Shown here piece by piece: positions 29,931 to 45,859 of a DNA stretch of 64,000 bases (positions within the stretch are counted from its first letter, which is position 1; each line of letters begins with the position of its first letter). The notes under the pieces are model-generated. The model was not told where the DNA came from. It did no database searches and saw only the letters and a list, made by a program, of their open reading frames with translations. Origin of the DNA: Bacteroidota bacterium (GTDB lineage: Bacteria; Bacteroidota; Bacteroidia; AKYH767-A; OLB10); the NCBI GenBank assembly GCA_016713525.1, contig JADJOZ010000001.1, forward strand, positions 716,225 through 780,224, given 5' to 3'. The position numbers and the translations under genes were made by a program.

Positions 29931-29965
29931 GCGGGGATTAATTGTTTGATTTGAATGAGTGCTTT

Positions 29966-30770: not shown

Positions 30771-30779
30771 TTTGCCCCC

Positions 30780-30869: not shown

Positions 30870-30880
30870 ACAAAAAATCA

Positions 30881-30910
30881 ATGCCCCTTTCGGGGCATTT
30901 TTTATTTTAT
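30881..30910 (+). terminator. intrinsic terminator after tRNA-Ser (ATGCCCC-TTTC-GGGGCAT then a T-tract)
   Basis: Perfect 7-bp GC-rich stem followed by TTTTTTATTTT. Confidence 0.7.
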
Positions 30911-30953
30911 GCCGTTGCCAAGCTTGCTTGAGCAAAAGGCAGAAATAAAAAAT

Positions 30954-31326
30954 GACGGCACAAAGTGCCGCATTGGTTTTTTGTTGAAGCCACCCCCAAA
31001 AGGGATCAGCGAAGCTAATCCCTTTTGGGAAAAAGCCCTGATCAAACTTGTTTGAATCGGGGCTTTTGCTTTTTCCAGCAACCAACCTTGGTTGGTTGCT
31101 TTTTGTTGAAGCCACCCCCCAACGGGATCAGCGAAGCTAATCCCTAACACCAATAAGAACCTGCAGCAACCAACCTTGGTTGGTTGGTTTTTGTTGATGC
31201 CACCCCCTAACGGGATCAGCGCAGCTAATCCCTAGCAAAAATCGCAGACCAATATCAACCAACTTTAGTTGGTTGTTTTTTGTTGAAGCCACCCCCAAAA
31301 CGGGATCAGCGAAGCAACAATTCGCA
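30954..31326 (+). repeat. tandem modular repeat array (4 units, ~88-bp period). Each unit is a palindromic hairpin with a T-tract followed by a conserved 45-nt motif TTTTTGTTGAAGCCACCCCC(N)AACGGGATCAGCGAAGCTAATCCC.
   Basis: Motif copies at 30975-31022, 31100-31144, 31188-31232 and 31277-31326. The preceding hairpins are CGGCACAAAGTGCCG, GCAACCAACCTTGGTTGGTTGC (twice) and CAACCAACTTTAGTTGGTTG. An extra terminator-like hairpin sits at 31032-31074. Confidence 0.75.
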
Positions 31327-31430
31327 TGCCTGTGTCGATGCCAGGTAAAACCTTTTGAACTGGATAAGGAAGAAAATTTCACGTTGGATACGGGAATTAA
31401 GGTTTGTTCCCATATAATTTTATTACATTT
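31318..31430 (+). promoter_or_regulatory. conserved ~110-nt upstream element, copy A (core CTTTTGAACTGG...GAAAATTTCAC..GGATACG.GAATT at 31352-31400)
   Basis: A near-identical element recurs at 33228-33340. Each lies ~200 nt upstream of the next start codon (31552 and 33458). Confidence 0.5.
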
Positions 31431-31551
31431 GAATAAAAAAATTCCAAAATTGATGGGTTTGCTGATACTAAACTTTAAATCGTTTTAGGTCCCTATAGTT
31501 ACCATTTTAACGCTCCGGACAAGTAGGAGAAAAAATTCAAAATAAGCTGCA

Positions 31552-33205
31552 ATGAAAAACATTCACAAAAATCTGCTTCTTGTTATTCTGACTTTTAATT
31601 TTTGCTTTTATTCTCTTTCCTATTCTCAAAATATTCCTACAATTCAGTGGCAAAATACTATAGGGGGAAGTAGTTTTGATTTCCTTTATTCTGCAGAGCA
31701 AACAACAGATGGTGGCTATATTCTTGTAGGATATTCTTATTCAAACATTTCAGGAGATAAAACTGAAAACTTTATAGGTAGTTATGGCAGAAGTGATTAT
31801 TGGATTGTAAAAACTGATTCATCAGGTAACATTCTGTGGCAGAACACTATCGGAGGAGAATATGAAGAAGCACTTACTTCCATAAAACAAACAACTGATG
31901 GGGGATATATTTTGGGTGGATTTTCACAGTCAAACGCTTCAGGCGATAAAACAGAAAATAATTATGATACTTTATGCGCAACTTTCGATTACTGGATTGT
32001 AAAAACAGATTCACTTGGAAATTTAATTTTGGGACATCACCATTGGTGGAAGTGATGAAGATAGACTTTTGGCTATTGAGCAAACAGCAGATAATGGTTT
32101 TATTCTAGGTGGATTTTCCAGATCAAATATTTCAGGTGTTAAAGTTGAAAATAATATTGGTGCATCTCCAACAACTGATTACTGGATTGTAAAAACTGAT
32201 TCGCTTGGCAATATTGAATGGCAAAACACAATTGGAGGTAGTTTATATGACTATCTTTATTCTATTAAGGAAACTCAGGACGGAGGTTACATTCTTGGAG
32301 GAATGTCTTGTTCAAACATTTCAGGTGATAAAACGGAAACCTGCCTATGGTATGGAGACTATTGGATTATAAAAACAGATTCACTGGGAACAATTCAATG
32401 GCAGAATACAATTGGAGGAAATGGCAATGACGCACTTTTTTCATTAGTACAAACCTCAGATGGAGGATATTTACTAGGTGGAGAATCTAATTCGAATATT
32501 TCGTGGGATAAGACTGAAAACAGCATGGGTGACTTTGATTATTGGATTGTAAAAACGAACTCAGTTGGAAACATTCAGTGGCAAAACACTATCGGAGGAA
32601 GTGAAGGTGATTTTCTCGAATCATTACAGCAAACCACTGACGGTGGCTATATACTTGGCGGCTGGTCCCTGTCAAACATTTCAGGCGATAAAACACAAAA
32701 TAATTGTGATAGTACTTTGGGCTATCCAGATTTCTGGATTGTGAAAACCGATGCTGCTGGAAGCATACAGTGGCAAAATACTATCGGGGGCAGTAAAAAC
32801 GATAAGCTTCATTCCATTGAACAAACAATTGACGGCGGATACATTCTTGGTGGCTATTCAGAATCAGACATTTCAGGAAATAAAACAGAAAATTGCATTG
32901 GCTATTCAGATTACTGGATTGTAAAACTTACTCCAGAAACAATCACTTCAAGTGTGCAAACGCCCTATCAGCAATTACCAATTTTAATTTCTCCCAATCC
33001 TTTTACAGATAAATTAAATGTTACTGTCAATAATAGTGAACTTTCAGAAATTATTCTTTATGACATGACAGCAAGAAAAATAATGCAAATGAATTTTACA
33101 AATTCCATTACTCTAAATACAGAACAGCTTGCAAAGGGTTTGTATATTTATGAATTGCGAATTAAAAATGGTATGTCCCCAAAAGGGAAAATTGTGAAAG
33201 ATTGA
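31552..33205 (+). CDS. 7-bladed beta-propeller-like repeat protein with T9SS type-A CTD, frameshift at T-run 32017-32020
   Basis: Track ORFs 31552-32055 and 32069-33205 form one gene. Removing one T from TTTT at 32017-32020 gives a continuous ...DSLGNLIWDITIGGSDEDRLLAIEQTADNGFILGG. There are seven ~60-aa repeats (QWQNTIGGS..D...S..QT.DGGYILGG.S.SNISGDKTEN....DYWIVKTDS.GNI), a signal peptide, and a C-terminal ISPNPFTDKLNVTV...GLYIYELRI type-A CTD. Confidence 0.65.
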
Positions 33206-33227
33206 GACGGTTATAAGCAAGTTTGCA

Positions 33228-33340
33228 CGGGCTTCGTTTCAGTATCCCTGCCAGACATAATCTTTTGAACTGGTCAGGATGAAAATTTCACACCGGATAC
33301 GTGAATTCAGCCTTATTTCCTGAAGGTATTTAAATTTGAA
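33228..33340 (+). promoter_or_regulatory. conserved ~110-nt upstream element, copy B
   Basis: CTGCCAGACATAATCTTTTGAACTGGTCAGGATGAAAATTTCACACCGGATACGTGAATTCAG...AAATTTGAAT aligns with copy A. Confidence 0.5.
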
Positions 33341-33457
33341 TCAAATTTTTTCTTAATTTGCAATAGCGTATAATTTTAGCGACTGACAAGTTGATTATAG
33401 ATAAAATGCATTTTTAAGCAGTTAACATGTATGATGTCATTTGTTTAAATTTATATT

Positions 33458-34018
33458 ATGAAACAATTTTACTGGATTTTTATTTTGCTTGCTGTAATAT
33501 CAAACCCACTTAATGCGCAGCAGGCAGAAGCTGATTTCAAAAAGTCCTTGTTTGTAAATTCAAAAGATGAAAATGTCTATTCGCTTTCTATTGGAGGTGG
33601 CATTGGTGCAGGTAGTCAAGGTGCTACTGGCGGATTGATTGTAGATTTAGACGTTTATCATATTTTAATTGGATATAAGTTGATAAAGCATGGAATTTTG
33701 TTGCCAAAAGACCACAAACAAGCAACTGAAAATTCTTTTTATTTTGGCTATCAATATCGAACTAAAAAAATAATGAGTTCAATTGGTGCAGGAATAGGCA
33801 TCTTAAAATATAAATGTACAAGTGGAATTAATGGCAACTGTTATGACATTGATGAAAACACGAGCCAATGCATACCATTGAAATTAGAGTTTGACTATTT
33901 ATTTTCACCATACATTGGAATTGGAATATCTGCAAACAATACATTTACTGATAATTCCCCCTTGTTTTCCGCTATGTTTCACCTGAAATTTGGTATATTC
34001 TGGAGTCAGGAATATTAA
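33458..34018 (+). CDS. putative outer-membrane beta-barrel protein (hypothetical)
   Basis: Signal peptide (PLNAQQ) and alternating amphipathic beta-strand pattern. It ends with aromatic residues (FWSQEY). No named domain recognised. Confidence 0.35.
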   Translation: MKQFYWIFILLAVISNPLNAQQAEADFKKSLFVNSKDENVYSLSIGGGIGAGSQGATGGLIVDLDVYHILIGYKLIKHGILLPKDHKQATENSFYFGYQYRTKKIMSSIGAGIGILKYKCTSGINGNCYDIDENTSQCIPLKLEFDYLFSPYIGIGISANNTFTDNSPLFSAMFHLKFGIFWSQEY

Positions 34019-34208
34019 GCAATAGTAAGCCTGTAACAACTCTCTCTGCCACCGGATTTATATGTTTAAAGGGTGTGTATCATAAATGGCCTGACAATAT
34101 TTTGATGAGGATTAATGGGTAATGTGGCACATACAAAATTTTTTGTCACCTTTGCTATAGCCATGAAAACTGGCGCCAATAACTTGACATAGCATTAAGC
34201 TCACAACC

Positions 34209-34685
34209 ATGAAGAAACCAATCTTAGTAATTTTAGTCCTTGCAGCAACTTTTTCGCTGGGCTTCGCATTTAAATCGCTTACTACAACCTATACAAACCC
34301 TAACAACATGAAAAGAGTAACCGGAATCGGCGGAGTTTTCTTTAAATGTAAAAATCCGAAGGAAACCACAGAATGGTATAAAAAACACCTCGGATTAGAT
34401 ACCAACCCATACGGTGCAACCTTTGAATGGTACGAAGGACCCGACAGTACCACCAAAGCCCAAACCCAATGGACACCCTTTCCGGAGACCACCAACTATT
34501 TCGGGAACTCGAACCAGAATTTCATGATAAACTACCGCGTTGAAAATCTCGAGGCATTGGTAGAAGAACTAAAAAAAGAAGGCGTAACCATAGTAGACAA
34601 AATTGAATCGTACGACTATGGCAAGTTTGTGCACATTCTCGATGGCGAAGGCAACAAAGTGCAGCTTTGGGAAGCGATAGATTAG
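34209..34685 (+). CDS. VOC (glyoxalase/bleomycin-resistance) family protein, secreted
   Basis: Signal peptide, then GIGGVFFKCKNPKETTEWYKKHLGL and KFVHILDGEGNKVQLWE blocks typical of the VOC superfamily. Confidence 0.55.
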   Translation: MKKPILVILVLAATFSLGFAFKSLTTTYTNPNNMKRVTGIGGVFFKCKNPKETTEWYKKHLGLDTNPYGATFEWYEGPDSTTKAQTQWTPFPETTNYFGNSNQNFMINYRVENLEALVEELKKEGVTIVDKIESYDYGKFVHILDGEGNKVQLWEAID

Positions 34686-34693
34686 CACGAACC

Positions 34694-35119
34694 ATGCAGT
34701 ATTTACTTTATCTGTTAGTCCTTTTTTACTTTTTGTATACACTTTCGTATGCTTTGAAATTCAATAGGGCCAACATTTACTATGCAGGTAAACAAAAGCT
34801 TGTCCATAATCTCATGATTTGGCTGGTTCCTTTTCTGTGGATTCTGCTCTTAAAAACCATTGACAGACCAATTGGAAGAAATTCGTTTTCCCAAGAACCA
34901 GAAACCGGTCCTGATGGAAGTGATGGAGGCGGGCCACCGGATTCTATTCATTTTTTCATGGATCCGGAAGTGCATCGGATGGAGGTTACTCCGGCTCCGA
35001 CTCAGGTGGCTACGATAACCATGGATATGACTCCGGTGGAAGTGGAAATTCAGGTGGTAGTGGAGATGGTGGGGATTAGGGGGGGCATTGCAAAGGCTAA
35101 ACATTATACAATAATATAG
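34694..35119 (+). CDS. hypothetical membrane protein (C-terminus possibly frameshifted)
   Basis: Two TM helices. The alternative frame after the T6 run near 34957-34962 gives a Gly/Ser/Asp/Tyr-rich low-complexity tail (GSGSASDGGYSGSDSGGYDNHGYDSGGSGNSGGSGDGGD). Confidence 0.3.
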   Translation: MQYLLYLLVLFYFLYTLSYALKFNRANIYYAGKQKLVHNLMIWLVPFLWILLLKTIDRPIGRNSFSQEPETGPDGSDGGGPPDSIHFFMDPEVHRMEVTPAPTQVATITMDMTPVEVEIQVVVEMVGIRGGIAKAKHYTII

Positions 35120-35198
35120 GACAACCTTTGAAATTGAGAGTGTTTTGCCGCAAAATACTTAAAAGTTTAGAATCATTTTATATAGTATTTTAAATGAG

Positions 35199-36572
35199 TT
35201 ATTTTTTATTTACTTTAAATTTCCCAGCAACTATTCTTAAATATTTCACTACGATAAAAATTGGAAATAACAGACAAAAAAACAATGATAAAAACCCTAT
35301 TTGCAATTGTTTTTGAATATCTAACATAAACAAGAACACAGAAACGATTAAAGTCAATATAATGTAGTTAATGAAACTATAAATTGGTTCTTTAAGTGTT
35401 GGGTCGAAAATAATCCAATTGAAAGGGTTTTTCTCATAGCCCATCAATTCTGGATTGAAAAAATATAGATATAAAAGGAATAGACAAAAAATTAGGATAT
35501 TGATTAAAATTCCGTTAGCAAGTTGAACTATGCTCAGCTTGTAATACAGGCTATTTCTCGAATCATTATTGACTTGCAATTTAATGATTTTTGAATTTGT
35601 TTTTGTAATTGGATCATGAAGACGGACGTCATAATTTCCAGATCGAAATTTCCTCTTTAAAAGAATTTTTAACTGGCTATTTTCTAGCTGAAACTCAAAA
35701 TCTTTGTTTATTTTATTTGGAACTAAAGAATTAATAAATTGAACTTCAATTTTGTCTTGATCTAAAATATTGTAGGTTCTAAAATCAAAAATTAAAGGGA
35801 TTTCCTGGTCAAATTTACTGCCATTGATGTTCAGAGAGTCATTGCCATCAAATTGATGATTTAATAAGGCTATAGTAGGTGCTTCAGTTTCAACAAGAGC
35901 GGAAATCAATAGAGAGAATGGTTTGGAGTTAGAATTTTCGAAAAAGTCAGGGATCAAAATTACTGAACCAGAATCAATTAATCCAACTATAAAATATATG
36001 CTTTCTTGTTTACAAGATGAAACTAACCTGAAATTGTGAGATTCAAAGTTGCTTTGGTTTAGAACTTGAGGAAAGTTATTTGTAGAATTTAAAAGTTGAT
36101 ATTCAGCATGTGTTAGCGATGACGTTACTTTAATATCAACAGTATTAAATTCGATAAATATTTTACTTTGCAGAGGAGAACTGGATGTCATACCGGATGC
36201 CCTTTTTGGAGTATGCAGTGGAACATAGTTAACTAGTAACAGTAAATGTGAATCTATATAAAGGAGTTTACCATTGATTAGATTTCGGGTTTGAATTTGA
36301 GCATTGACATCAAAAATGCGTTCTTGAAATTGGGAATTCATTTCCGTATAAGTAAATTCATGAACCCTGATATTTGTTGTACTTGAAGATTCATATTTAA
36401 CTAAAAGGCAAATTTTATTTTCTGAAAAAGTAGCATCTAAAATTTCAGGTTTAAGTTGAGAGTCAATTCGTTTGTGAGAGATATTTTTGTAAATCATGTC
36501 GTAATTATTAGTGTTAGCATCAGATTTCGTATAAATCAAAATTCCCAAAATAATTAAAATTAGCTGTCTCAT
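35199..36572 (-). CDS. hypothetical protein: signal peptide, large extracytoplasmic domain, C-terminal TM helices
   Basis: 457-aa AT-rich ORF with N-terminal MRQLILIILGILIYT and C-terminal hydrophobic helices. No recognisable domain. Confidence 0.4.
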   Translation of the reverse strand: MRQLILIILGILIYTKSDANTNNYDMIYKNISHKRIDSQLKPEILDATFSENKICLLVKYESSSTTNIRVHEFTYTEMNSQFQERIFDVNAQIQTRNLINGKLLYIDSHLLLLVNYVPLHTPKRASGMTSSSPLQSKIFIEFNTVDIKVTSSLTHAEYQLLNSTNNFPQVLNQSNFESHNFRLVSSCKQESIYFIVGLIDSGSVILIPDFFENSNSKPFSLLISALVETEAPTIALLNHQFDGNDSLNINGSKFDQEIPLIFDFRTYNILDQDKIEVQFINSLVPNKINKDFEFQLENSQLKILLKRKFRSGNYDVRLHDPITKTNSKIIKLQVNNDSRNSLYYKLSIVQLANGILINILIFCLFLLYLYFFNPELMGYEKNPFNWIIFDPTLKEPIYSFINYIILTLIVSVFLFMLDIQKQLQIGFLSLFFCLLFPIFIVVKYLRIVAGKFKVNKK

Positions 36573-37140
36573 AGTGATAGATTTGTTTGATTTGGAAAAT
36601 GTATATCAGGGTTTTTATTGAAAATTTACACTTTGATTTTTTTCGGATTGATTTATTTGGAAGAAATATTAATTTTATTATTGGTGTATTTAAGCTGCTT
36701 AGTAATTGCTTTCAACAAATTTCACAATTATTGGACTGGATTTCCATCTTAAATAATTTCAAATTTATAAGAATATTAGAGATTTCCAAAATTGCGTTCT
36801 GTAAAACTTGTTTTTATCGAAAACTAGTAATGATTTAGTGCATGATGAGTTATCGATTGAGTTGTAATGATCATTGAAATAGCTTGAAAACAGACACATG
36901 TTGTCAGGTGTTGTTTACATAAGTATTTGAATATTGCAATTTATTGAATATCAGAATAATGTAATACTTACTTAAGGTTTTGGTTGGCTTTTCAGGAAAA
37001 TAGGTAAGGTTTTCTTGCTAACGAAGCAGTTTATTTAATTTCACACTTTTTCGTGGACCATCCTAACTATTTTTTTTAAGGGGAAGAAGTGGGTTCGGGG
37101 AAAAAATGTACTTTTGGTACTAAACTTAAAACTAAAATTT

Positions 37141-37494
37141 ATGAAAAGATCTACTTTGATTGCAATTGCAATTTTTATCGCCTGTAATGTGAATGGGCAA
37201 ACGAATACAGATTCTACTCAGGTCAGAATTGAAATGGTTCAATTGAATTTAAACAAGTATTATAACCAGACAAGGACAGGTACTGGGATATTCGCTTTTG
37301 GAGCTTTACTTGGGACTGCTACACTTATTGGATTGGATCGACAGCAAGGTGAATATAGGTTACGTAATAGTTTGTACGGAGTTGCTGGAGCTGCTGCTTT
37401 GACCGGGTTGCTTATAAATATGGAAGCAATTCGTTTTGTTCGCGAGGCTTCAGAGATTTCCATTGGACCAGGGGGTGCAAAAATTAAATTTTAA
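37141..37494 (+). CDS. hypothetical secreted or membrane protein
   Basis: Signal peptide (MKRSTLIAIAIFIACNVNGQ) and a Gly/Ala-rich TM-like segment. First gene of a three-gene co-oriented cluster. Confidence 0.35.
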   Translation: MKRSTLIAIAIFIACNVNGQTNTDSTQVRIEMVQLNLNKYYNQTRTGTGIFAFGALLGTATLIGLDRQQGEYRLRNSLYGVAGAAALTGLLINMEAIRFVREASEISIGPGGAKIKF

Positions 37495-37509
37495 CACATT
37501 TTAATTAGT

Positions 37510-37854
37510 ATGACTGAAGAAAATGAAAAGTTGCAAACGAAGCATAAGCAACAATTTTGGTTCAAAGTAGGATTGACTGTTATAATTCTATTGTGGCTCT
37601 CTAATTTTTTGATTTTGTTTTGTCATAATCCTGGAACTATTGGTGATTCTTTTGGTGTTGTTAATTCACTCTTCAGTGGATTAGCATTTGGAGGAATAAT
37701 TTATACAATCATACTTCAAAGGGATGAACTACAACTTCAAAGAGACGAACTTAGTTTAACTCGATTAGAATTGAAGAGATCTGCTAATGCACAGGAAGAT
37801 TCTCAAAAGGCTCTTGAAAGGCAAGCAGCTAATTTGAAAAAAGTGCAGAATTGA
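37510..37854 (+). CDS. hypothetical membrane-anchored coiled-coil protein
   Basis: Two TM helices, then a coiled coil with an internal LQRDELQLQRDEL duplication. It starts 16 nt after the previous gene. Confidence 0.35.
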   Translation: MTEENEKLQTKHKQQFWFKVGLTVIILLWLSNFLILFCHNPGTIGDSFGVVNSLFSGLAFGGIIYTIILQRDELQLQRDELSLTRLELKRSANAQEDSQKALERQAANLKKVQN

Positions 37855-38063
37855 GTGCTCTAACAACTCTTATTGAATATTACCAAGGTTTGAATACTAA
37901 AACTTATGACATTATAGCTAAAGAAAGATACAATGATGTGATCACCATTTATATTGCAAGAATTTCTCAAATACTTGAAGATAAACAAAGCTAGATAAAA
38001 AATTCATATAGTTGCATTCTGATACTGATAGTTTTTACAATAATCTGATAAATTTGATTTTTT

Positions 38064-38909
38064 ATGCTTAATGAAATAAGAGATGGCTGGTCCCATTTTA
38101 TTGATAGGTTAAAAAGTCCATTTGGTGGAACATTTATATTTATCTGGATAATCACCCATTGGGAATTCATTTATTATCTAATTTTTGTCAGTTCTGATGT
38201 GACAGCTGAAGAACGAATTATAAACTTTAAATTTTTTTTTCAAGGAAGTCTTGGTAAAAGATTTATCTTGGATGTATTGCAACCTGCATTATTAACATTT
38301 CTCGCAATTGCAACATATCATAGCTTTTCCATTGTAGCGGGAGTAATCACCGGTGCTTTTAAGCGTTATTTGGAGCCCTGGATTTCAGGTGAATTGGGGA
38401 CTGGACCAACCGTTTTGAAATCTGAACTGGATTTGGAATCTCAAAGATTAATGAAACTCCAATTAGAATTAACAAAATGTCAAGATTTGAGAAATGATGA
38501 ATCTAGGCGGAATTTAGGTTCTGAACAAGAATTGAAAAGTAGTATAAATGTTTATTTGGGCCAGCTGAATAATGCAAATGCCAAAATTAATGATATTGAA
38601 AACAGACTGAAAATTTTAAGCGAAGGAGACAATAAACAATTATCAGATTTACATTATAAGCAGAGATTGAAAGAATTAAGATGCTTGGATTTTAGAAATG
38701 ACAGGCATCCAGGGTTAAGGGATATAATGAAGGATAAAAAATATAATTTTTATTTCGATGATGTAACCAAATCATTTAATCGAGAATCATTCAACTTGGA
38801 TGACAGTTCCTATCTTGTAGATGGAGTTAAAAAGTACAATATTTCAACAGTGATGATTAATCATATATACAAAATCAGGTGTATTTTGAAAAAGGGATAT
38901 GAAAAATAA
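38064..38909 (+). CDS. hypothetical membrane protein with C-terminal coiled-coil
   Basis: 281 aa with N-terminal TM helices followed by a long coiled-coil and charged region. No recognisable domain. Confidence 0.4.
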   Translation: MLNEIRDGWSHFIDRLKSPFGGTFIFIWIITHWEFIYYLIFVSSDVTAEERIINFKFFFQGSLGKRFILDVLQPALLTFLAIATYHSFSIVAGVITGAFKRYLEPWISGELGTGPTVLKSELDLESQRLMKLQLELTKCQDLRNDESRRNLGSEQELKSSINVYLGQLNNANAKINDIENRLKILSEGDNKQLSDLHYKQRLKELRCLDFRNDRHPGLRDIMKDKKYNFYFDDVTKSFNRESFNLDDSSYLVDGVKKYNISTVMINHIYKIRCILKKGYEK

Positions 38910-39089
38910 TTTGGTCTATATTAATTTAATAAATTATTCAATGCTAAATAATGGTACTTATTTTGGGTTTGAATTGAATTATGCAACCCAAAAAATGTAT
39001 AAAATTCTATATTCACCAGTTGATATTTCAGAGTTCCAAAATTATTTCTCTGGAACTGAGGATAATTAAGTAATTTGTCGCCTGTGCAT

Positions 39090-39707
39090 CTATCCAGCCC
39101 CATTCTGAGCCACATACTTTTCCGTACACACTTTAACATACTCCAAGCCTCCTCGCTTATCATCCCCACCGTGAAGGGAATTCTCACGGGGTTTAAAGGG
39201 GTTCAGAATATAATTCTTGTACCTGCAGTAGTCGCCTAATTTCTTTTTAAACTGCCGGGAATCACAGTACATCCTTTGTTTTGGGTAAATATCATAAAAG
39301 TGATCCGTGAGCTCCTTTCGGCTTATTTCCACGTTAAGATTGTTAGGATCTGAAAAGTAGGTATCTGCCCAATCCATAAATGACTCTCCGATATCCTGCC
39401 GGAGCTTTCTGGCTTGAATATTCTCAAATGGGGGAGACACTATCCCGAATTTAAAATAAAGCTTCAGACAGGTCGCCATGAGGTTGTAAAACAGATTCCA
39501 CTGGTCGAACTCCCATTCATCAAAGAAAAGCACTCCGAAATCGTCCACCGGTCGCAAATGTGGACCGTAATAGTCTGAAAAGACCATAAACGCCTGGCGA
39601 TCGCTGTGGCTGTATCCGGAGCCGGACAGGGCATGATTGGTTGTAAGGAAGATCTTGGGACTGTTGGTTAGAGTGAGTCGCTTGTCATATTTGCCTTCAA
39701 TTTGCAT
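39090..39707 (-). pseudogene. C-terminal fragment of a P4-type phage/plasmid primase-helicase (D5-like), remnant
   Basis: KIFLTTNHALSGSGYSHSDRQAFMVF...FFDEWEF resembles the region after the ATPase core of P4-family primases. The N-terminal primase and Walker A parts are absent. No flanking integrase. Confidence 0.3.
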
Positions 39708-39806
39708 TCTGCCGGTGATAAGAGGGAATAGGCAATGGAATTGAGGATGGAACCTTTGGAAAGGGGTGGGTTACTTAGGTTCATCAGGTGAAGTGGAAGT
39801 TAAAAT

Positions 39807-40750
39807 TATGTAGATCTTTCAACAACATAATTAACGAATTTTTCAATTAATATTTCAACTAATTTAGGAGTTGAGATGTAATCGTCGAATTTGTTCGTGG
39901 TGCTCCAACCTAGCTCTCCTGTGATGTATTTGTGAAAATAATAAGATTGATTACCACCCTGTAGATTTGTTGAGTTATATTCAAAATTGCATTGTAATCT
40001 TGAATCTGATAATGTATTACTATATTTTCTAATAAATTCAATACAAAGAAGTAAAGGATCAATTCCAATGTGAAAATGAACTTTGGGAACATCTCCTCCA
40101 ATCTGGAGTGATCTTTTGAATAATTTCGATTAGGTTGATTGTCAGGCCATATTTTGTTATATTCCTCAAAAATTTTATCATATAACAGTTGTAATTCTGA
40201 ATTCAAATCTTTAATTGATTCCTCATGCCTGAAATAATTTGACAGGCCGTCGATCCAGTTTTTCTGTGGTTTAAGTTATCAATTATTTCTTTCGGAGTTA
40301 GTTTTAATGAACTCCCATGTAACTCAATCAATTTTTGTTGTATAAATCCGACTGTTAAATCTATCGTAGACAAGTCAAAATTAGCGTATATGTAATTTCT
40401 TCCAATATAATCAATTTGGCTGTTGTCTAAATTCAGAATTATAAAACTATATGGAGTACTAAATTTTGAGTTAGCAATTGTCTAGACATTATTGCTTCTT
40501 TTTCAATCAAGGTCCAGGATGAAATTCCATAATTTTCTCTATGCAAAATGATAACTAAACGACTTCTATGTTTATATATATTTTGTAGTACAGGAATTGC
40601 ATTTTTAAATGCTAATTCCTTTTTATCCGTACTGTAAAGAAATATTTTGTCCGTATTTCCCAGTCTTTTCTGTAATTCTTCGGCTATCTTTTTGTCTTGA
40701 TCCAACAAAGAAAAGGCTATTTCGTAATCAAAATCTAAAGAATCGTTCAT
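39807..40750 (-). pseudogene. TIR/TIR-like domain protein disrupted by at least 3 frameshifts
   Basis: Track ORF 40439-40750 has a TIR-like N-terminus (DFDYEIAFSLLDQDKKIAEELQKRL...SRLVIILHRENYGISSWTLIEKEAI). Translation continues in other frames as TIANSKFSTPYSFIILNLDNSQIDYIGRNYIYANFDLSTIDLTVGFIQQKLIELHGSSLKLTPKEIIDNL, then NSELQLLYDKIFEEYNKIWPDNQPNRNYSKDHSRLEEM, then DVPKVHFHIGIDPLLLCIEFIRKYSNTLSDSRLQCNFEYNSTNLQGGNQSYYFHKYITGELGWSTTNKFDDYISTPKLVEILIEKFVNYVVERST, ending at 39807. Confidence 0.45.
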
Positions 40751-40769
40751 GACCTAAATATTTATATTT

Positions 40770-40982
40770 TTAAATTGGATCTAATCGTTCAAGCTCAAAT
40801 TCATTTGCATGTACAAAAGGCATGAATTCACCCTCAGCAATCTCAACAGGAATTAAAACAAAATCAAACCCTAGCAAAGGATAGATGTCATTTAAAAAAT
40901 GTTTTCTCGGTTTAATTTTATCTCCTTCAATGCTGTGTTTTATTCCTTTATACAGCACAATATCTCCTATTTTGTATTTCAA
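40770..40982 (-). CDS. hypothetical small protein immediately upstream of the TIR-like gene
   Basis: 70-aa ORF whose stop lies 20 nt before the TIR-like start. No recognisable domain. Confidence 0.3.
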   Translation of the reverse strand: MKYKIGDIVLYKGIKHSIEGDKIKPRKHFLNDIYPLLGFDFVLIPVEIAEGEFMPFVHANEFELERLDPI

Positions 40983-41378
40983 TTTTAGTAGAATTTTTAT
41001 GCAATATACGATTTTTAAAAGTAAAAAGGTATTTAGATAGTATCTTTTTGAAATCTAAATGCTGGAACTGAAGCTTACATTTGGCCTCGCTATCAAATAA
41101 TCTAAGTTGATTCATTTTGGTAAAATAGTATGTGTTTTAATAAATGCACAGTAATTTGCTCCACTTTATTTTTGGAACCATCATATTGGGAATTACTTTT
41201 CCGATTTGGAATTACAGGAATTTCATACCCTCACAACCAATCGAACTATTCATGTCCATATTTGTAAAAATTTATTTTATTTTTTTGAAATTTCAAATTA
41301 ACATTTCTGGTTGAATGAGATTTTCTGAATGGTGCGATTGAAACCTGGATATTAAAAATTATTAACTGATTCATAAAC

Positions 41379-42775
41379 TTAATTTTTAACAATAGCCTGA
41401 TTCGTAATTGACAATTTTTCAATTAAAGCCAATGTTTGTCTGTATTCAGCTGCCTCTGAAAGTTTTGTGAATTCTATTTCAGCATTTGTTGTTGTGAGAA
41501 TGAATTTTTCTAATTCATCCAATGTAATTTTGAAAAATTCTTTTCGATAATTAATTTTATTTAGTCTTTGGTTATCGAATTGTTTGTGAATTTCGTATTC
41601 CAATTGTGGTGCATTTTCAGAGTAAATTATTGCATGTACATCGAAATGGAACGGTACAGAGGCATCACCTAATTCCTTAACGCGCTCTTTAGGGTCAAGT
41701 CTACGGGTCATGCCAATTTTGTAAACATTTTCGCCAAATGCACCAATGTTAGAAACAACATATATGTGACCTACTTTTGTTTGCTGAGCCATTGATATTG
41801 CTCTGTCTTTGCGTTCGTGTGCCAATTGTAATTCGGCTTCTAATTGAGCAATTTTTTCCAGTAATTCATTCTTGTTATCAATAAGTCCGGATTCGAGTTG
41901 CTGTTTTGTTTTTTCAATTTCCTTTTCAAAGACTATTTCATCCTGTTCAGCAGATTTTTTTGCACGTTCTAACTCACGTAAAGCACGTTCTTCCTCCTTC
42001 ATCTGTTCTTTAAGACGTTTTTGCTCCTCTTTCTCTTCATATTTTTTTGGAGTTCATATTCATAGGTCAATGCTAATTCTTCAAGTTTGCATTCTAGGAA
42101 GGATTTGGTGACATAAATTTCATGACTTGAACCCAAGGTATTTACATTTTCATAAATCTTGACGATACGTTCTTTGGACTTTTCTATATTGTTCCATTTG
42201 ACTTTTGATATAATTGCTTCACATTCCCCATTAAATGCGAAGATCATAAGTTTTTCATACTGCTTCGTCATTTTTTTTCCTTCAGATTGACTACCACCTA
42301 CCACCCATTGCCTGTCACATTTTGCACCAGCACCTTGTTTAATTAGAAGTCTCTGCTTTTGATAATTTAATTCTAATTTTTCTGAATATTGTGAGCTTAC
42401 TTCAAAGTTAAATTGAGGTTGATATACGCCATAAGTTCCAAGTTCCAGTGTATCTTGAAACAATTCGATTTCCTTCCTCATTTTGGAAATATCTTCTGAA
42501 GTTGCATCAAATGTGCTTTTCTGACCTTCAAGTTGCAATTTTAAATCTTTGACCTTTTCTTCAAATGAATTTATTGATTCAGACATTTTTGCTAATGGTC
42601 CAAATTGAATTATGTGTTCTTTCAATTTGTCCACTTCCAAATAAGCAGAATCTTTTTCTAAATTTAAGCTGGTAATCTTTTTTCTCAAACTGCTTATTAT
42701 AATAAAAGCAACAATCGAAGTAAGGACAATTCCGATTCCTAAGCCGAACAAAGTATGTGTTTGATCATCCATCAT
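41379..42775 (-). CDS. DUF4041 plus T5orf172 (GIY-YIG-like) domain protein, frameshift in homopolymer at 42043-42049
   Basis: Track ORFs 41999-42775 (TM, coiled coil, DUF4041-like) and 41379-42002 (T5orf172-like: VGHIYVVSNIGAFGENVYKIGMTRRLDPKERVKELGD...) are one gene. Adding one A to the A7 run on the coding strand gives a continuous ...YELQKKYEEKEEQKRLKEQMKEEERALRELERAKK. Confidence 0.7.
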
Positions 42776-43105
42776 TATAGTAGTTTACAGGTATTTAATT
42801 CTCGGAAAGTATAAATTTAATATCTAACCAAACCAAGGGTTTTCCCTATTTTTTTCAAGGGTTTTCCCGCAATTTCCTTCTGTAAACTTCGGTTTTGTTG
42901 CATTTTGGGAATTATTATTAATGAACCATTTAGGACGTTTTCATTTTAATGGAGTTAGATTATGAAAGTTTAGTCGTAGTTATTTTGGCGATTTGTGGAG
43001 TTTGCAGTTAATTTATGTGTAATGTAGTAAACAATCTTATAATTGCCTTTTCCAGTAAGATCCATTACTTTTAGTTCAATTTCATTTCAATTTAATACCG
43101 TAATC

Positions 43106-43453
43106 ATGATTAATTTTAAAAGGTTACATACAGCAGTCAAGAAAGCTGGTCGTTCATGGGAAAATGTTGGGCCTGTAATTGGTTTAACCGGTAATGGAAT
43201 GCGATATTCCATCAAAAATAGATCACTTTCATTGGTTAAATATGAAAAGTTATGCAAGGAGTTGAAGGTGCATCCGGCATTTATATTCCTTGAAAGCGAT
43301 GATTTAAGTGCTATGTTTTATAAGAAACGGATAACTGAAGTAGATTTGGGTAGTAGCCAGATTGCGATTTTAAAGGCTGAAAATGAGATGTTGAAAGAGC
43401 AAAATCGCAAGCTTCAAACCAGATTGATCGAATTGATTGACATCAAAAAGTAA
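43106..43453 (+). CDS. small HTH DNA-binding regulator with C-terminal coiled coil
   Basis: MINFKRLHTAVKKAGRSWENVGPVIGLTGNGMRYSIKN resembles a Cro/C1-type HTH. The C-terminus is a leucine-zipper-like coiled coil. Divergent from the DUF4041 gene. Confidence 0.4.
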   Translation: MINFKRLHTAVKKAGRSWENVGPVIGLTGNGMRYSIKNRSLSLVKYEKLCKELKVHPAFIFLESDDLSAMFYKKRITEVDLGSSQIAILKAENEMLKEQNRKLQTRLIELIDIKK

Positions 43454-43604
43454 GTTCCGCAATCGAACCATTAATGAAATTACACATACTTTTTTTTTAT
43501 TTACATTAGCGTTTTGAACTTCGGTACAGGACAGGTTAATGATTGTTTAAAACCAGTTCTACGATCCTTAATTCCAAAATGGAGTCTTAAAAATTAATTA
43601 CCAA

Positions 43605-43955
43605 ATGATCTACAAATTCAAACTAACCACTTATAGAATTATAGGAGCAATTCTTGTTTTACTCGGGTTGATTGGATACCTGACTATAGCAGATGAATTC
43701 CGACACTATAATGAATTTCTTGGAGTGACCTGTGTACTGGTTTCCGGTCTGGTTTTGTTGCTTATTGACTTTAGATTTCATTTATTTCAAAAAGTTGAAC
43801 TCCAGTGGCTCTCTATTTGCCTGTTAGCATGTATACCCCTTGGAGGTGTTGTCCTTGATAATATGCCGATCGGTATGTGTATAGGATTTATTTCAGGAAT
43901 TTCAATTGCTATTATTTTGGGAAAGGTTAATGTGACCAAATCAAGTCAATCGTAA
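43605..43955 (+). CDS. hypothetical membrane protein (4 TM)
   Basis: 116-aa hydrophobic ORF. Confidence 0.35.
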   Translation: MIYKFKLTTYRIIGAILVLLGLIGYLTIADEFRHYNEFLGVTCVLVSGLVLLLIDFRFHLFQKVELQWLSICLLACIPLGGVVLDNMPIGMCIGFISGISIAIILGKVNVTKSSQS

Positions 43956-44111
43956 AAAAATAGCGTAATAATTGATCCCATGTCACCAATCCATCAAAAT
44001 TACCATGAACTTAGCTGATCGTTTTTTATTCAGTTGACCAAGTTTAATAAGCTCTTTATTATCCGTATTAAGGCATTTTTCTGTTGCAATTGATCTCAAA
44101 ATGATTATCTT

Positions 44112-44486
44112 GTGAAAAATAATGTATTTATGAAAGTCATGGTCCAAGCTGAATCTATAAGCAAATTGATGCAATATCAGCTCCACGAGCGGGTTTATCC
44201 TTCCTGGGTGTTTGATGAGAGTACCTTGCTAATAATTGATGCCAATCAGAGTGCACAAGATTTTTGCAATTATGAGGGTAATGAGTTAATTGGATTAAGT
44301 ATTACGGAGCTTTGGAAAGACGAGGACTTGAGTGATATCATTCATGATCTGGAGATGCATAGTTCGGAGCGATCATTTTATGGTAATCTGAAGCATACCA
44401 AAAAGAATGGTGACGAGGTGATAATGCGTGTACGTGCCACGCGACAACTTAATCCAAAAACACTTTGGGAAGTACATTTAGTATGA
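44112..44486 (+). CDS. small PAS-domain protein
   Basis: LLIIDANQSAQDFCNYEGNELIGLSITELW...HTKKNGDEVIMRVRATRQL is PAS-like. Confidence 0.4.
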   Translation: MKNNVFMKVMVQAESISKLMQYQLHERVYPSWVFDESTLLIIDANQSAQDFCNYEGNELIGLSITELWKDEDLSDIIHDLEMHSSERSFYGNLKHTKKNGDEVIMRVRATRQLNPKTLWEVHLV

Positions 44487-44755
44487 TTTGACTCTCTATT
44501 TTGCGTTAGGGATTGAGCCAGGTACCGTGTACCGGTGAAAGCCCGCCCCGAAGGGGAACGCCCAAAGAGCGAAAAGCATCCAAAGAATAGAAACTCTAAA
44601 ATTGACTAAAACCTGCTGTGCAGTGATTCCGATTTTTACTTTTTTGTACTACATTTGATGCAATATATCTTACCATGCATCTTGTGCTGATTGCGGTATT
44701 TGGTTGTTATTCAATGAGATATAAAGGTATCAAAGGTTTAGGCCGGATTTAAGGG

Positions 44756-45859
44756 ATGATTTCGAATATGGTAAGAAGAATGGTGTGCATCGTGATTTTG
44801 ATGATGGCATTTTATCCGTTGAAGGCTCAGTTTACCTATGAAATGGTGCCACTGGAAGTATTGGATACTATTTTTGATAAGTCGGCAATTGATAAGCTCA
44901 GAAATGAGCAACTGCATTACCTTTCTCCTGATTATTTTACGGTTGGAGTGTATAAAAAAAGCGGCGGACTTTGTTTGATTGCCCGCGAAGGGAATCACTG
45001 GCTGGCTATGAGTTTGCCCGCTGACAATTCGATGGAGAACAAAAAACTTCAGTACAATGGTACTTATATTTTTTATGAAACCTTTTTTACGCATGCATCG
45101 AGAGGGATATCGGGTTCGTATGGCAATTTTAATTTGATTGATCCGACAAGAAAAACATGCGTGGAAGTGCCTGTTACCGTTAACATGGAAACTTATGATA
45201 CTGATTCAGAAGATGCAATTGGACATGAAACTTCTTGTGATTCGAAGGTGATTTTGCAAAACAACGAATTGCATGTTGTAAGTTTTAGCTCCGGTAACAG
45301 CGATTGCATACAGAGTGGTGTTTATAGAATAGAGGATCGTGAATTGAAGAAGATTAAACATTTGGATGAATCGCGTTATGCCATGGTTGATGTGCGATGG
45401 GCTGGTAAAATAGCGACCTACATGAATTTGGATGAAGTCAAAACTGCCTATGGTTACGCAACAGTGGAGCCGGTCACCGACAGCTACAGTAATTGTGCAG
45501 CCGGTGAAGTGGTTGCTCAACAGATTACCTGGGGAAATGATACTCTGGCGGTGGTGTTGCTAAATGCCGATGATTTACAACTTGTGCGGACAATAATTGT
45601 GCTATCGGATAAGATTCCATTTGGCAAAGTGCATAAAGGATTAACTGCTAAGGAACTTTTTCAGCTATATCCGAAAGAAAAATTGCATGCAGATTTACTG
45701 AGTGATGATGAGTATATTTATCTGGATGATTTACAAATTAAAGTCGTGTTTAAAACAACGGAAGCGAACAGGGTAGGGAAGTATGATGATGAGGAATACA
45801 AAGGCTTGAAGCGACCTGATGCCGTGATAGATTTTATTGAAGTTAATTACCATGGCTAA
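44756..45859 (+). CDS. hypothetical secreted protein
   Basis: Signal peptide (MMAFYPLKAQ). 367 aa. No recognisable domain. Confidence 0.45.
   Translation: MISNMVRRMVCIVILMMAFYPLKAQFTYEMVPLEVLDTIFDKSAIDKLRNEQLHYLSPDYFTVGVYKKSGGLCLIAREGNHWLAMSLPADNSMENKKLQYNGTYIFYETFFTHASRGISGSYGNFNLIDPTRKTCVEVPVTVNMETYDTDSEDAIGHETSCDSKVILQNNELHVVSFSSGNSDCIQSGVYRIEDRELKKIKHLDESRYAMVDVRWAGKIATYMNLDEVKTAYGYATVEPVTDSYSNCAAGEVVAQQITWGNDTLAVVLLNADDLQLVRTIIVLSDKIPFGKVHKGLTAKELFQLYPKEKLHADLLSDDEYIYLDDLQIKVVFKTTEANRVGKYDDEEYKGLKRPDAVIDFIEVNYHG

What the first reader, a model, noticed from the sequence alone, without database searches (positions are those of the whole stretch)
39807..40982. TIR-like domain gene with an upstream 70-aa partner ORF, read through at least three frame changes
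An N-terminal TIR/TIR-like fold (DFDYEIAFSLLDQDKKIAEELQKRL...LVIILHRENYGISSWTLIEKEAI) is followed, in shifted frames, by ~200 aa of clearly protein-like sequence ending at 39807. A 70-aa ORF (40770-40982) ends 20 nt upstream on the same strand. Bacterial TIR-domain proteins are NADase effectors in several anti-phage systems. This gene has an unusual, non-Thoeris context: there is no SIR2, SLOG or macro partner, only a small ORF. Given the error rate in this assembly, the frameshifts may be artefacts, and this could be an intact two-gene TIR system.
Basis: partly seen in the sequence, partly recalled or inferred. Interest (0 to 1): 0.55.

Follow-up and report, generated by a model that had tools for sequence, protein, structure and literature searches.

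The report
Standalone TIR gene broken by sequencing errors
This is one gene for a 315-residue protein with an NAD-cleaving-type TIR domain and an unknown second domain; it sits next to a known anti-phage gene, its three "frameshifts" are Nanopore assembly errors, and the small upstream ORF is not a conserved partner.

Summary
On the minus strand, 40750 to 39806 reads as one protein through exactly three frame changes. Each is a missing A in an A-run. A 70-codon ORF ends 19 nt upstream.

The frameshifts are assembly artefacts. A sister Nanopore MAG has the same gene with 0 substitutions but 6 one-base indel differences, and it restores two of the three junctions. A short-read contig of the same locus calls an intact 315-aa ORF with identical spacing, and its span is exactly 3 nt longer than the window's.

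The protein has an N-terminal TIR domain. The AF2 model has pLDDT 89 and its top PDB matches are all TIR. The family matches Pfam TIR_2, and an invariant Glu83 aligns with the catalytic Glu. The C-terminal alpha/beta domain matches no solved structure.

It belongs to a large unnamed family of about 315-aa proteins (3336 representative hits) found in many phyla. The family has no conserved neighbour. The 70-aa ORF is an orphan and is absent from all other family loci, so the two-gene reading fails.

The gene lies in a cassette with PD-Lambda-1, inside a degraded primase-bearing island.

The most likely role is a standalone sensor-TIR NADase acting by abortive infection. That role is inferred, not shown.

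The parts
39806..40750 (-). Complete coding sequence of the TIR-plus-unknown-domain protein. The true length is 948 nt, giving 315 aa. The window lacks 3 nt.
   Evidence: define the segments. One search shows an intact 315-aa ORF at the same locus in a short-read contig. One search gives P0001 at 54% identity, E = 4e-96.
40308..40735 (-). TIR domain, about residues 6-148. The candidate catalytic Glu83 lies in the motif SSWTLIEKE.
   Evidence: AF2 model pLDDT 89, pTM 0.86. The top Foldseek PDB hits are all TIR domains. Pfam TIR_2 matches 29 of 61 family members. hhalign against the SNC1 TIR gives probability 82% and aligns E83 with the Glu of WCLNE.
39809..40307 (-). C-terminal domain, about residues 149-315. 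It has two long helices, a six-stranded antiparallel sheet and a terminal helix. Trp283 is nearly invariant. No known fold match was found.
   Evidence: Domain model pLDDT 92. The best PDB Foldseek hit has E = 0.077. BFVD gives only weak matches to uncharacterised phage proteins. No Pfam match. Conservation.
40464..40467 (-). Junction 1. The A4 run should be A5, a 1-nt deletion artefact.
   Evidence: Predicted from P0001. The sister assembly L096 has the longer run at window position 40464.
40259..40263 (-). Junction 2. The A5 run should be A6, a 1-nt deletion artefact.
   Evidence: The sister assembly L096 has the longer run at window position 40259.
40085..40131 (-). Junction 3. One nucleotide is missing somewhere in this stretch, most likely in the A4 run at 40114-40117. 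Both Nanopore assemblies share this error.
   Evidence: any single insertion in this stretch gives 315 aa. The junction is not corrected in L096. The short-read contig has a 315-aa ORF and a span 3 nt longer than the window.
40770..40982 (-). Orphan 70-codon ORF with a TTG start. It is not a conserved partner, and whether it is a real gene is undecided.
   Evidence: The only database match is itself. No Pfam or PADLOC hit. No match in phages. Absent from other family loci. It was called again as 70 aa in the short-read contig.
41379..42775 (-). Neighbouring PD-Lambda-1 defence gene (DUF4041/SNIPE plus T5orf172). In the window it is split into two ORFs by an indel in the A7 run at 42042-42048.
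   Evidence: PADLOC E = 1.6e-91 and 1.7e-54, with contiguous model coordinates 54-274 and 280-478. Pfam. The junction is in frame in the sister assembly. The short-read contig has at least 463 aa in one ORF.
39090..39755 (-). Remnant of a mobile-element primase. It is the last 220 of 1013 residues of a DnaG zinc-ribbon/DUF5906 primase, and it marks the downstream edge of the inserted cassette.
   Evidence: tblastn of P0051 residues 793-1012, 90% identity. The intact element is L099.

Best explanation
The locus holds one real, intact gene for a 315-aa two-domain protein. In this assembly the gene looks broken only because three bases are missing from A-runs, which is a Nanopore homopolymer error.

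The N-terminal half is a TIR domain that keeps the glutamate used by TIR NADases. The C-terminal half is an alpha/beta domain of unknown fold and low sequence conservation.

The protein belongs to a large, unnamed family of standalone TIR proteins of about 315 aa. The family is scattered across many bacterial phyla and has no conserved neighbour.

Here the gene lies with PD-Lambda-1 in a cassette of about 3 kb. That cassette replaced the regulatory genes and most of the primase of a degraded mobile element, in a low-GC island beside a tRNA-Ser gene.

The most likely mode of action is inferred. The variable C-terminal domain senses a phage-derived cue. This lets the TIR domains assemble and hydrolyse NAD+, which arrests the infected cell. 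That is an abortive-infection mechanism, as shown for the standalone TIR protein SpbK.

The 70-aa ORF is not part of a conserved system.

Shown: gene integrity, the TIR fold, the conserved Glu, the size and standalone nature of the family, and the cassette context. Inferred: NADase activity, the sensing role of the C-terminal domain, and the anti-phage function.
For: Artefact:
- Sister MAG L096 matches the gene with 0 mismatches and 6 one-base indel differences. It carries the longer run at junctions 1 and 2.
- The two assemblies differ by 77 indels in 16.5 kb.
- A Logan short-read contig calls ORFs of 70, 315 and 205 aa with the same 19-nt and 98-nt gaps. Its span is 1896 nt against 1893 nt in the window.
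- ENA short-read contigs equal window 38925-40080 with no gaps.
- The sister MAG comes from an R9.4.1 Nanopore/CANU study. Its two values in what appear to be the coverage columns are 3.8 and 10.8.
- Outside the island, the window again differs from sister assemblies by A6-to-A5 deletions at 56133 and 63784.

TIR domain:
- Pfam TIR E = 0.0017 for the window protein.
- Pfam TIR_2 matches 29 of 61 family members, best 1.2e-8.
- AF2 pLDDT 89. The top Foldseek PDB hits are TIR domains: RUN1, MAL (TM 0.70), MyD88, AbTir, SPARTA, TIR-STING and ThsB.
- In the 61-sequence alignment A3, F37, G75, T80 and E83 are invariant and S14 is conserved in 60 of 61. Across 159 sequences they are 97-100% conserved: G75 and T80 100%, S14 and E83 98%, F37 97%.
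- E83 aligns with the Glu of the SNC1 motif WCLNE.
- TIR NADases need this Glu (10.1101/2025.04.09.647920; PMC11984713).

Family:
- 3336 hits at E <= 1e-3 and 389 at E <= 1e-30 among 1.84 billion representatives. Most are 305-335 aa and full length.
- 130 confirmed genome loci across many phyla.

Standalone:
- The largest neighbour cluster occurs in 6 of 83 loci.
- Neighbours are a mix of scattered defence genes, integrases and housekeeping genes.

Context:
- PD-Lambda-1 is adjacent.
- P0001 sits next to a type I restriction-modification system.
- The cassette replaced part of a primase element.

Precedent:
- SpbK (PMC11984713).
- Standalone TIRs enriched in defence islands were set aside as likely NAD-depleting effectors by Yirmiya et al..
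Against: - No experiment exists for any member of the family.
- The window protein alone scores below Pfam's TIR gathering threshold (18.6 against 21.3 bits).
- PADLOC and NCBIfam have no model that matches.
- The window/P0001 subclade has lost several residues that are nearly invariant in the rest of the family: G48, G51, W74, P113, W115, P117 and G145. Its activity could therefore differ.
- Many family loci have housekeeping neighbours, and the defence-island association was not quantified.
- DNA of the short-read contig was not available, so its 315-aa ORF was seen only as a gene call.
- An exact look-up of ten stitched variants found nothing in the collection.
- The C-terminal domain gives no clue to what is sensed.
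Confidence: 0.6

Rival explanations
1. The gene is a genuine pseudogene in this strain. The homopolymer deletions are real slippage mutations, and the TIR gene is dead.
For: Junction 3 is shared by both Nanopore assemblies. In the 51-64 kb part of the window, A/T runs of true length 5 were never miscalled (0 of 50), yet two of the three junctions would be A5 to A4. The short-read contig comes from another sample.
Against: Two assemblies of the same element differ by 6 indels and 0 substitutions within the gene, and by 77 indels in 16.5 kb. Divergence does not produce that pattern. Each assembly has its own private frameshifts. The four segments contain no stop codons. The short-read contig has an intact 315-aa ORF, and its span differs from the window by exactly 3 nt. 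The neighbouring PD-Lambda-1 and other genes are broken in the same way, but are intact elsewhere.
Confidence: 0.06
2. This is a two-gene system. The 70-aa ORF encodes a partner of the TIR protein, such as an antitoxin, regulator or sensor, and is co-transcribed with it.
For: The ORF is on the same strand with a 19-nt gap. It was called again as 70 aa in an independent short-read contig. An open frame of about 77 codons in 30% GC DNA is only modestly likely by chance (my estimate, p about 0.1).
Against: There is no homologue in 5.8 billion proteins, in phages, or in Pfam or PADLOC. The closest intact homologue, P0001, has unrelated small ORFs upstream. No ORF70-like sequence occurs in any frame at 83 family loci. 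The family has no conserved neighbour. The ORF starts with TTG.
Confidence: 0.1
3. The TIR domain is a Thoeris-like signal generator, or an orphan effector of a nucleotide-signalling system such as CBASS, Pycsar or type III CRISPR. In that case the C-terminal domain binds a second messenger that is made elsewhere.
For: TIR-STING, TIR-SAVED and ThsB appear among the structural matches of the TIR domain. A standalone TIR-SAVED effector has been reported (10.1101/2025.06.19.660554, listed). The C-terminal domain has a helix plus beta-sheet plus helix layout that could form a pocket, and Trp283 is invariant.
Against: No cyclase, ThsA-type effector, pAgo or CRISPR gene is conserved next to the family. 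The C-terminal domain does not match STING, SAVED, CARF, SLOG or cNMP-binding structures in the PDB. Apart from Trp283 the domain has almost no invariant residues. That pattern fits a fast-evolving protein sensor better than a conserved small-molecule pocket. PADLOC ThsB matches only 1 of 61 members, at E = 0.0065.
Confidence: 0.12
4. The family has a role outside defence, for example NAD metabolism or regulation, a scaffold function, or action on eukaryotic hosts.
For: Many loci have housekeeping neighbours such as aconitase, SHMT, MutS and DinG. No defence database lists the family. Some bacterial TIR proteins act as virulence factors (general knowledge).
Against: The distribution is patchy across phyla and the contexts are variable. 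Neighbours repeatedly include restriction-modification genes, PD-Lambda-1, PD-T7-4, AriA, ThsB, a 4TM effector, integrases and transposases. The gene lies in a low-GC island inside a degraded mobile element. The hosts are free-living environmental bacteria.
Confidence: 0.12

Closest known systems
SpbK (YddK) of Bacillus subtilis ICEBs1, a standalone TIR abortive-infection protein
   Same: Both are single genes on a mobile element. Both have one non-TIR domain plus one TIR domain with a catalytic Glu. SpbK depletes NAD+ after its sensor domain binds the phage portal protein (PMC11984713). This is the mode of action proposed here.
   Different: The domain order is reversed: the SpbK sensor is N-terminal and its TIR is C-terminal. 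No sequence relationship was tested or seen. The non-TIR domains are unrelated in size and predicted structure. For this family nothing has been shown experimentally.
Thoeris ThsB (TIR signal generator with a ThsA-type effector)
   Same: Both have a bacterial TIR domain with a conserved Glu. ThsB is among the structural matches.
   Different: No effector gene is adjacent or conserved. The PADLOC ThsB models do not match. This protein carries an extra C-terminal domain of about 170 aa. Yirmiya et al. explicitly excluded standalone TIRs from Thoeris.
TIR-STING, TIR-SAVED and Pycsar-TIR effectors of cyclic-nucleotide signalling systems
   Same: Both have an N-terminal TIR followed by a C-terminal regulatory domain in a protein of about 300-450 aa. 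Activation by oligomerisation is the expected logic.
   Different: The C-terminal domain does not match STING or SAVED structures. No cyclase gene is nearby.
PD-Lambda-1 (the neighbouring gene, not the finding itself)
   Same: It is a known single-gene anti-phage system encoded 0.6 kb upstream on the same strand. It marks the cassette as defence-related.
   Different: The protein is unrelated (DUF4041 plus T5orf172). It does not co-occur with the TIR family elsewhere.

Membership tests
TIR domain superfamily (Pfam TIR PF01582 / TIR_2 PF13676) | Significant match to a TIR profile | tested here: inconclusive
   The window protein gives PF01582 E = 0.0017 and 18.6 bits, below the 21.3-bit cut-off. 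At family level the feature is met: 29 of 61 relatives match TIR_2, best 1.2e-8. hhalign against the SNC1 TIR gives probability 82%, E = 1.1e-5.
TIR domain superfamily (Pfam TIR PF01582 / TIR_2 PF13676) | Flavodoxin-like alpha/beta TIR fold | tested here: met
   The AF2 model has pLDDT 89 and pTM 0.86. All top Foldseek PDB hits are TIR domains with probability 0.97-1.0. TM-scores are 0.70 for MAL, 0.71 for MyD88 and 0.64 for AbTir.
TIR NADases | Conserved catalytic glutamate in helix alpha-C (W-x-x-x-E context) | tested here: met
   E83 is invariant in 61 of 61 sequences and 98% conserved in 159. It aligns with the Glu of SNC1 WCLNE. That this residue is SNC1 E84 rests on my own knowledge of the numbering.
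TIR NADases | NAD+ hydrolase or cyclase activity | not testable with these tools
   This needs a biochemical assay of the corrected protein.
Thoeris | TIR gene adjacent to a cognate effector gene (SIR2-SLOG, Macro, TM and others) | tested here: not met
   No such gene is in the window. No neighbour is conserved in 83 loci.
Thoeris | Match to ThsB models | tested here: not met
   PADLOC gives no hit for the window protein. Only 1 of 61 relatives matches, at E = 0.0065.
CBASS/Pycsar/type III CRISPR TIR effectors (TIR-STING, TIR-SAVED, PycTIR) | C-terminal or N-terminal nucleotide-sensor domain (STING, SAVED, cNMP-binding) and a nearby cyclase | tested here: not met
   The best PDB match of the C-terminal domain is p32 at E = 0.077. 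No Pfam match. No conserved cyclase neighbour.
SPARTA (TIR-APAZ plus short pAgo) | APAZ domain and an adjacent short Argonaute | tested here: not met
   The full-length alignments to TIR-APAZ have rmsd above 20 A, so only the TIR part matches. No pAgo is among the neighbours.
   ORF70 has no homologue. It is absent at P0001, P0002 and P0003 and in all other family loci.
PD-Lambda-1 (neighbouring gene 42775-41379) | Full-length match to the PADLOC PD-Lambda-1 model, with DUF4041 plus T5orf172 domains | tested here: met
   The two ORFs match model positions 54-274 and 280-478 at E = 1.7e-54 and 1.6e-91. Pfam DUF4041, T5orf172 and MUG113 match.

The most novel reading that the evidence does not exclude
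The roughly 315-aa family (TIR plus an alpha/beta domain with no structural match in the PDB) is a widespread, so far unnamed single-protein anti-phage system. Its C-terminal domain would be a new kind of infection sensor, recognising either a phage protein or a host-derived signal. The family has more than 3000 representative clusters across Bacteroidota, Acidobacteriota, Planctomycetota, Chloroflexota, Gemmatimonadota, Pseudomonadota and other phyla.
Probability: 0.4. Interest if true: 0.5.

Novelty: new variant of a known kind. Interest (0 to 1): 0.35.

Why it matters
For this window, the result removes a false pseudogene and a false two-gene system. The gene is intact, and the frame changes are a property of the assembly.

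More broadly, it points to a large family of standalone TIR proteins with an uncharacterised second domain. That family is missing from Pfam (for the C-terminal domain), NCBIfam and PADLOC. Surveys of TIR immunity have deliberately set such standalone TIRs aside.

If the family defends against phages, its C-terminal domain would be a new sensor module coupled to a well-understood NAD-cleaving effector, and it would be easy to test. The value is moderate. Sensor-TIR abortive-infection proteins are an established concept, so a specialist would find this a useful addition rather than a surprise.

Tried and rejected
1. The word-indexed homologue search gave only 3 hits and 23 with a profile, which wrongly suggested a tiny family. 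The exhaustive profile search showed thousands of hits.

A 23-sequence alignment worked.

3. I first took the split M4 peptidase (972 + 605 aa against 1614 aa in sisters) as evidence of homopolymer errors. It is in fact a deletion of about 170 nt in a repeat.

4. Homopolymer statistics from 51-64 kb gave 0 of 50 errors at length 5. That made sequencing error look unlikely for two of the junctions. Direct comparison with the sister assembly and short-read contigs overruled this indirect argument.

5. An exact look-up of ten junction-3 variants of the stitched protein found none in the collection. The true junction-3 residues are therefore still unknown.

6. A possible fusion of the 55-aa ORF (41115-40948) with ORF70 was considered. 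It has no homologues and would need a different kind of indel, so I dropped it.

8. tblastn of the stitched protein against plasmids gave no match.

9. Pfam and PADLOC on ten other island ORFs gave nothing relevant to defence.

10. The 'conserved serine' near the catalytic Glu of plant TIRs could not be mapped, because the alignment has a gap there. I did not use it.
Full report
**1. What is in the sequence**

On the minus strand an ATG at 40750 opens a reading frame that runs as four segments:
- 40750-40466
- 40466-40260
- 40260-40114
- 40114-39809, followed by TAA at 39808-39806

At each junction one base has to be read twice, so the window lacks one nucleotide at each. All three junctions fall in A-runs on the coding strand:
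- A4 at 40464-40467
- A5 at 40259-40263
- junction 3 lies somewhere in 40085-40131, most likely the A4 run at 40114-40117

The segments contain no internal stops. Stitched together they give 315 aa. This protein matches an intact 346-aa metagenomic protein, P0001, at 54% identity over 97% of its length (E = 4e-96).

A 70-codon ORF with a TTG start (40982-40770) ends 19 nt before the ATG.

**2. Where the window comes from, and how reliable it is**

Exact look-ups place the window on an 855-kb contig of a 'Bacteroidetes bacterium' MAG with locus tags IPK08_034xx. The first 103-aa segment is already deposited as MBK7968038.1, 'toll/interleukin-1 receptor domain-containing protein'. ORF70 is MBK7968039.1, annotated as hypothetical.

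A sister MAG is GCA_016703655.1, JADJBQ01. It is Aved_18-Q3-R54-62_BAT3C.302, placed in order AKYH767-A, family OLB10. It comes from the Danish activated-sludge study, which assembled R9.4.1 Nanopore reads with CANU and polished them with medaka and Illumina-Racon (PMC8012365). The two values in what appear to be its coverage columns are 3.8 and 10.8.

That the window's own MAG comes from the same study is my inference from the shared accession and locus-tag series.

**3. The frameshifts are artefacts**

The sister MAG carries the same island. Locus L096 aligns to window 29013-45531 at 98.3% identity, with 170 mismatches and 77 indels.

Inside the TIR gene there are 0 mismatches but 6 one-base indel differences. 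At window positions 40464 and 40259 the sister has the longer run. Those are exactly the corrections I had predicted from P0001 before this comparison.

At 40689, 40168, 40045 and 39956 the sister is the one that breaks the frame, as judged against P0001 and the family consensus. Two short-read ENA contigs equal window 38925-40080 with no gaps, which confirms the window at 39956 and 40045.

Six indels with no substitutions is the signature of consensus error, not of divergence.

Junction 3 is shared by both Nanopore assemblies, so on this evidence alone it stayed open. A Logan short-read contig (ERR12160659, 8014 bp) settles it. Its gene calls at this locus are:
- PD-Lambda-1 as at least 463 aa in one ORF
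- a 70-aa ORF
- a 315-aa ORF
- the 205-aa primase remnant

The gaps between the last three are 19 nt and 98 nt, identical to the window. The span from the ORF70 start to the end of the 205-aa ORF is 1896 nt, against 1893 nt in the window. The difference is precisely the three missing bases.

The junction-3 residues therefore remain uncertain, although any single insertion in that stretch gives 315 aa.

The same kind of error breaks neighbouring genes:
- PD-Lambda-1, at the A7 run 42042-42048
- a 404-aa gene, at 56133 (A6 to A5)
- an intergenic run at 63784

I put the probability that the gene is intact in the organism at about 0.9.

**4. What the protein is**

*N-terminal domain.* The window protein alone scores just below Pfam's TIR threshold (E = 0.0017, 18.6 against 21.3 bits). 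The wider evidence is stronger:
- 29 of 61 aligned relatives match TIR_2, best 1.2e-8.
- An AlphaFold2 model built on the family alignment is confident (pLDDT 89, pTM 0.86).
- Its best PDB matches are all TIR domains: RUN1, L7, RPP1, RPS4, MAL, MyD88, AbTir, SPARTA TIR-APAZ, TIR-STING and ThsB. Probabilities are 0.97-1.0 and target-normalised TM-scores reach 0.71.
- In the 61-sequence alignment, F37, G75, T80 and E83 are invariant and S14 is conserved in 60 of 61. Across 159 sequences they are 97-100% conserved.
- Glu83, in SSWTLIEKE, aligns with the Glu of the SNC1 TIR motif WCLNE (hhalign probability 82%, E = 1.1e-5).

TIR NADases require this glutamate (10.1101/2025.04.09.647920; SpbK E192, PMC11984713).

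*C-terminal domain.* Residues of about 149-315 are predicted with pLDDT 92 as two long helices, a six-stranded antiparallel sheet and a terminal helix. Nothing significant matches it:
- It matches no Pfam family.
- It matches no solved structure. The best hit is p32 at E = 0.077, with weak Bet v 1-like hits.
- Among viral models it gives only weak matches to uncharacterised phage proteins.

Only Trp283 is nearly invariant in this domain.

**5. The family and its context**

An exhaustive profile search of 1.84 billion representatives finds 3336 proteins at E <= 1e-3, 948 at E <= 1e-10 and 389 at E <= 1e-30. Most are 305-335 aa and match from end to end.

A scan of one genome per species confirmed 130 loci in a wide range of groups: Bacteroidota, Ignavibacteria, Acidobacteriota, Planctomycetota, Chloroflexota, Gemmatimonadota, Nitrospirota, Verrucomicrobiota, Pseudomonadota and others. 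These include a few isolates (Terrimonas, Gaetbulibacter, Winogradskyella).

NCBIfam and PADLOC have no model for the family.

Clustering all ORFs within 6 kb of 83 loci gave no conserved neighbour. The largest neighbour cluster is present in 6 of 83 loci. Immediate neighbours fall into three groups:
- scattered defence genes: a 4TM effector, PD-T7-4, AriA, ThsB, HsdS, PDC-S01 and PDC-M04A
- integrases and transposases
- plain housekeeping genes

P0001 sits beside a type I restriction-modification system and RadC.

The family is thus a standalone gene with a patchy, mobile-looking distribution. The window protein and P0001 form a divergent subclade. They have lost several residues that are nearly invariant elsewhere (G48, G51, W74, P113, W115, P117, G145).

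**6. The 70-aa ORF**

The evidence against a conserved partner is consistent:
- It has no homologue other than itself in 5.8 billion proteins.
- It has no similarity in phage genomes.
- It has no Pfam or PADLOC match.
- It is absent next to P0001, P0002 and P0003.
- It is absent in all six frames of every other family locus.

It is called again as 70 aa in the short-read contig, so its frame is genuine sequence. That does not show that it is expressed or that it works with the TIR gene. The two-gene interpretation is not supported.

**7. Local setting**

The gene lies in a low-GC stretch (0.30-0.35 against about 0.40) that begins just after a tRNA-Ser gene at 30780-30869.

Directly upstream on the same strand is PD-Lambda-1. 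Directly downstream is the last 220 aa of a 1013-aa DnaG-zinc-ribbon/DUF5906 primase.

In a related element with an intact primase (L099), a run of small genes precedes the primase. In the window, those small genes and the 5' 2.4 kb of the primase are replaced by the cassette PD-Lambda-1 - ORF70 - TIR gene, at about 39756-42900. The other island ORFs have no informative matches.

**8. How it most likely works**

Shown:
- an intact gene
- a TIR fold with the catalytic Glu conserved
- a second domain of unknown fold and low conservation
- a standalone distribution
- a position next to a known defence gene inside a mobile-element remnant

Inferred: the C-terminal domain holds the TIR domain inactive until it recognises an infection cue. 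The TIR domains then self-associate and cleave NAD+, which stops growth of the infected cell.

The closest experimentally characterised precedent is SpbK of ICEBs1. It is a standalone sensor-plus-TIR NADase that is activated by binding a phage portal protein (PMC11984713). A recent survey of bacterial TIR immunity removed 'TIRs found in standalone proteins' from its Thoeris set as likely NAD-depleting effectors (10.64898/2025.12.03.692087). That shows the category is recognised but under-studied.

My confidences are:

| Claim | Confidence |
|---|---|
| TIR fold | 0.95 |
| Intact gene | 0.9 |
| Active NADase | about 0.65 |
| Anti-phage role | about 0.5 |

**9. Rivals**

- A real pseudogene (0.06) is contradicted by the short-read ORF and by the pattern of indels without substitutions.
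- A two-gene system with ORF70 (0.1) fails the co-conservation test.
- A signalling TIR or orphan effector of a nucleotide-signalling system (0.12) lacks a partner and a recognisable sensor fold.
- A role outside defence (0.12) is not excluded, because the defence association was not quantified.

**10. Verdict**

The finding is real as an observation. It is ordinary with respect to the frameshifts, which are assembly error, and wrong with respect to the partner ORF. What remains is a member of a large, unnamed family of standalone TIR proteins with an unknown C-terminal domain. I rate it a new variant of a known kind, of moderate interest (0.35).

Noticed in passing
window 41379-42775 (-): A PD-Lambda-1 anti-phage gene (DUF4041 plus T5orf172) appears as two ORFs of 258 and 207 aa because of an indel in the A7 run at 42042-42048. 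It is in frame at that site in the sister MAG and forms one ORF of at least 463 aa in a short-read contig.
   Followed up: yes
window 39090-39755 (-); L099 10001-13042: Only the last 220 residues of a 1013-aa DnaG-zinc-ribbon/DUF5906 primase survive (90% identity to P0051). The defence cassette replaced the rest of the primase and the small genes that precede it in a related element.
   Followed up: yes
window 29013-45531 vs L096: Two Nanopore MAG assemblies of the same island differ by 77 indels and 170 substitutions. From 35 to 43 kb there are about 40 indels but only about 20 substitutions. Most ORFs in this stretch are therefore unreliable as called; for example, 38064-38909 is 281 aa here but 334 aa in a short-read contig.
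   Followed up: partly
window 49573-54244 (+): An M4 metallopeptidase with a T9SS sorting domain is 1614 aa in seven sister MAGs. Here it is split into 972 + 605 aa because about 170 nt (residues 958-1010) are missing at 52434. This is probably a collapsed internal repeat rather than a homopolymer error.
   Followed up: partly
window 56133 and 63784: The window differs from the long sister assemblies and the longest short-read contig (L006-L009) by A6-to-A5 deletions at 56133 and in the run at 63784. The first splits a 404-aa gene of the nos cluster region into ORFs 55680-56333 and 56093-56893.
   Followed up: yes
window 30780-30869 (+) and 31076-31315: A tRNA-Ser(TGA) gene is followed by 2.7 copies of an 88-nt tandem repeat that contains a hairpin-plus-T-run. 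Similar repeats occur in the related element L099 (6300-6885). The low-GC island starts just after this, which suggests integration next to the tRNA gene. The repeats may be att-site or terminator duplications.
   Followed up: no
window 55-63 kb (-): A complete clade II (Sec-dependent) nitrous-oxide reductase cluster (NosZ, NosL, NosD, NosF, NosY). The NosZ protein sequence is identical on 16 contigs from several samples and assemblies.
   Followed up: no
L001 1-8612: The closest intact homologue (P0001) lies directly downstream of a type I restriction-modification system that has extra DUF2971 and Dam-methylase genes. A RadC gene follows P0001. This is a defence-island setting in an unrelated metagenomic contig.
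   Followed up: partly
window 39910-40206 (-): The out-of-frame reading of the TIR gene stays open for 98 codons. In the sister assembly, two compensating indels at 40045 and 39956 switch into this alternative frame. It has no homology support and is an artefact of AT-rich sequence.
   Followed up: yes
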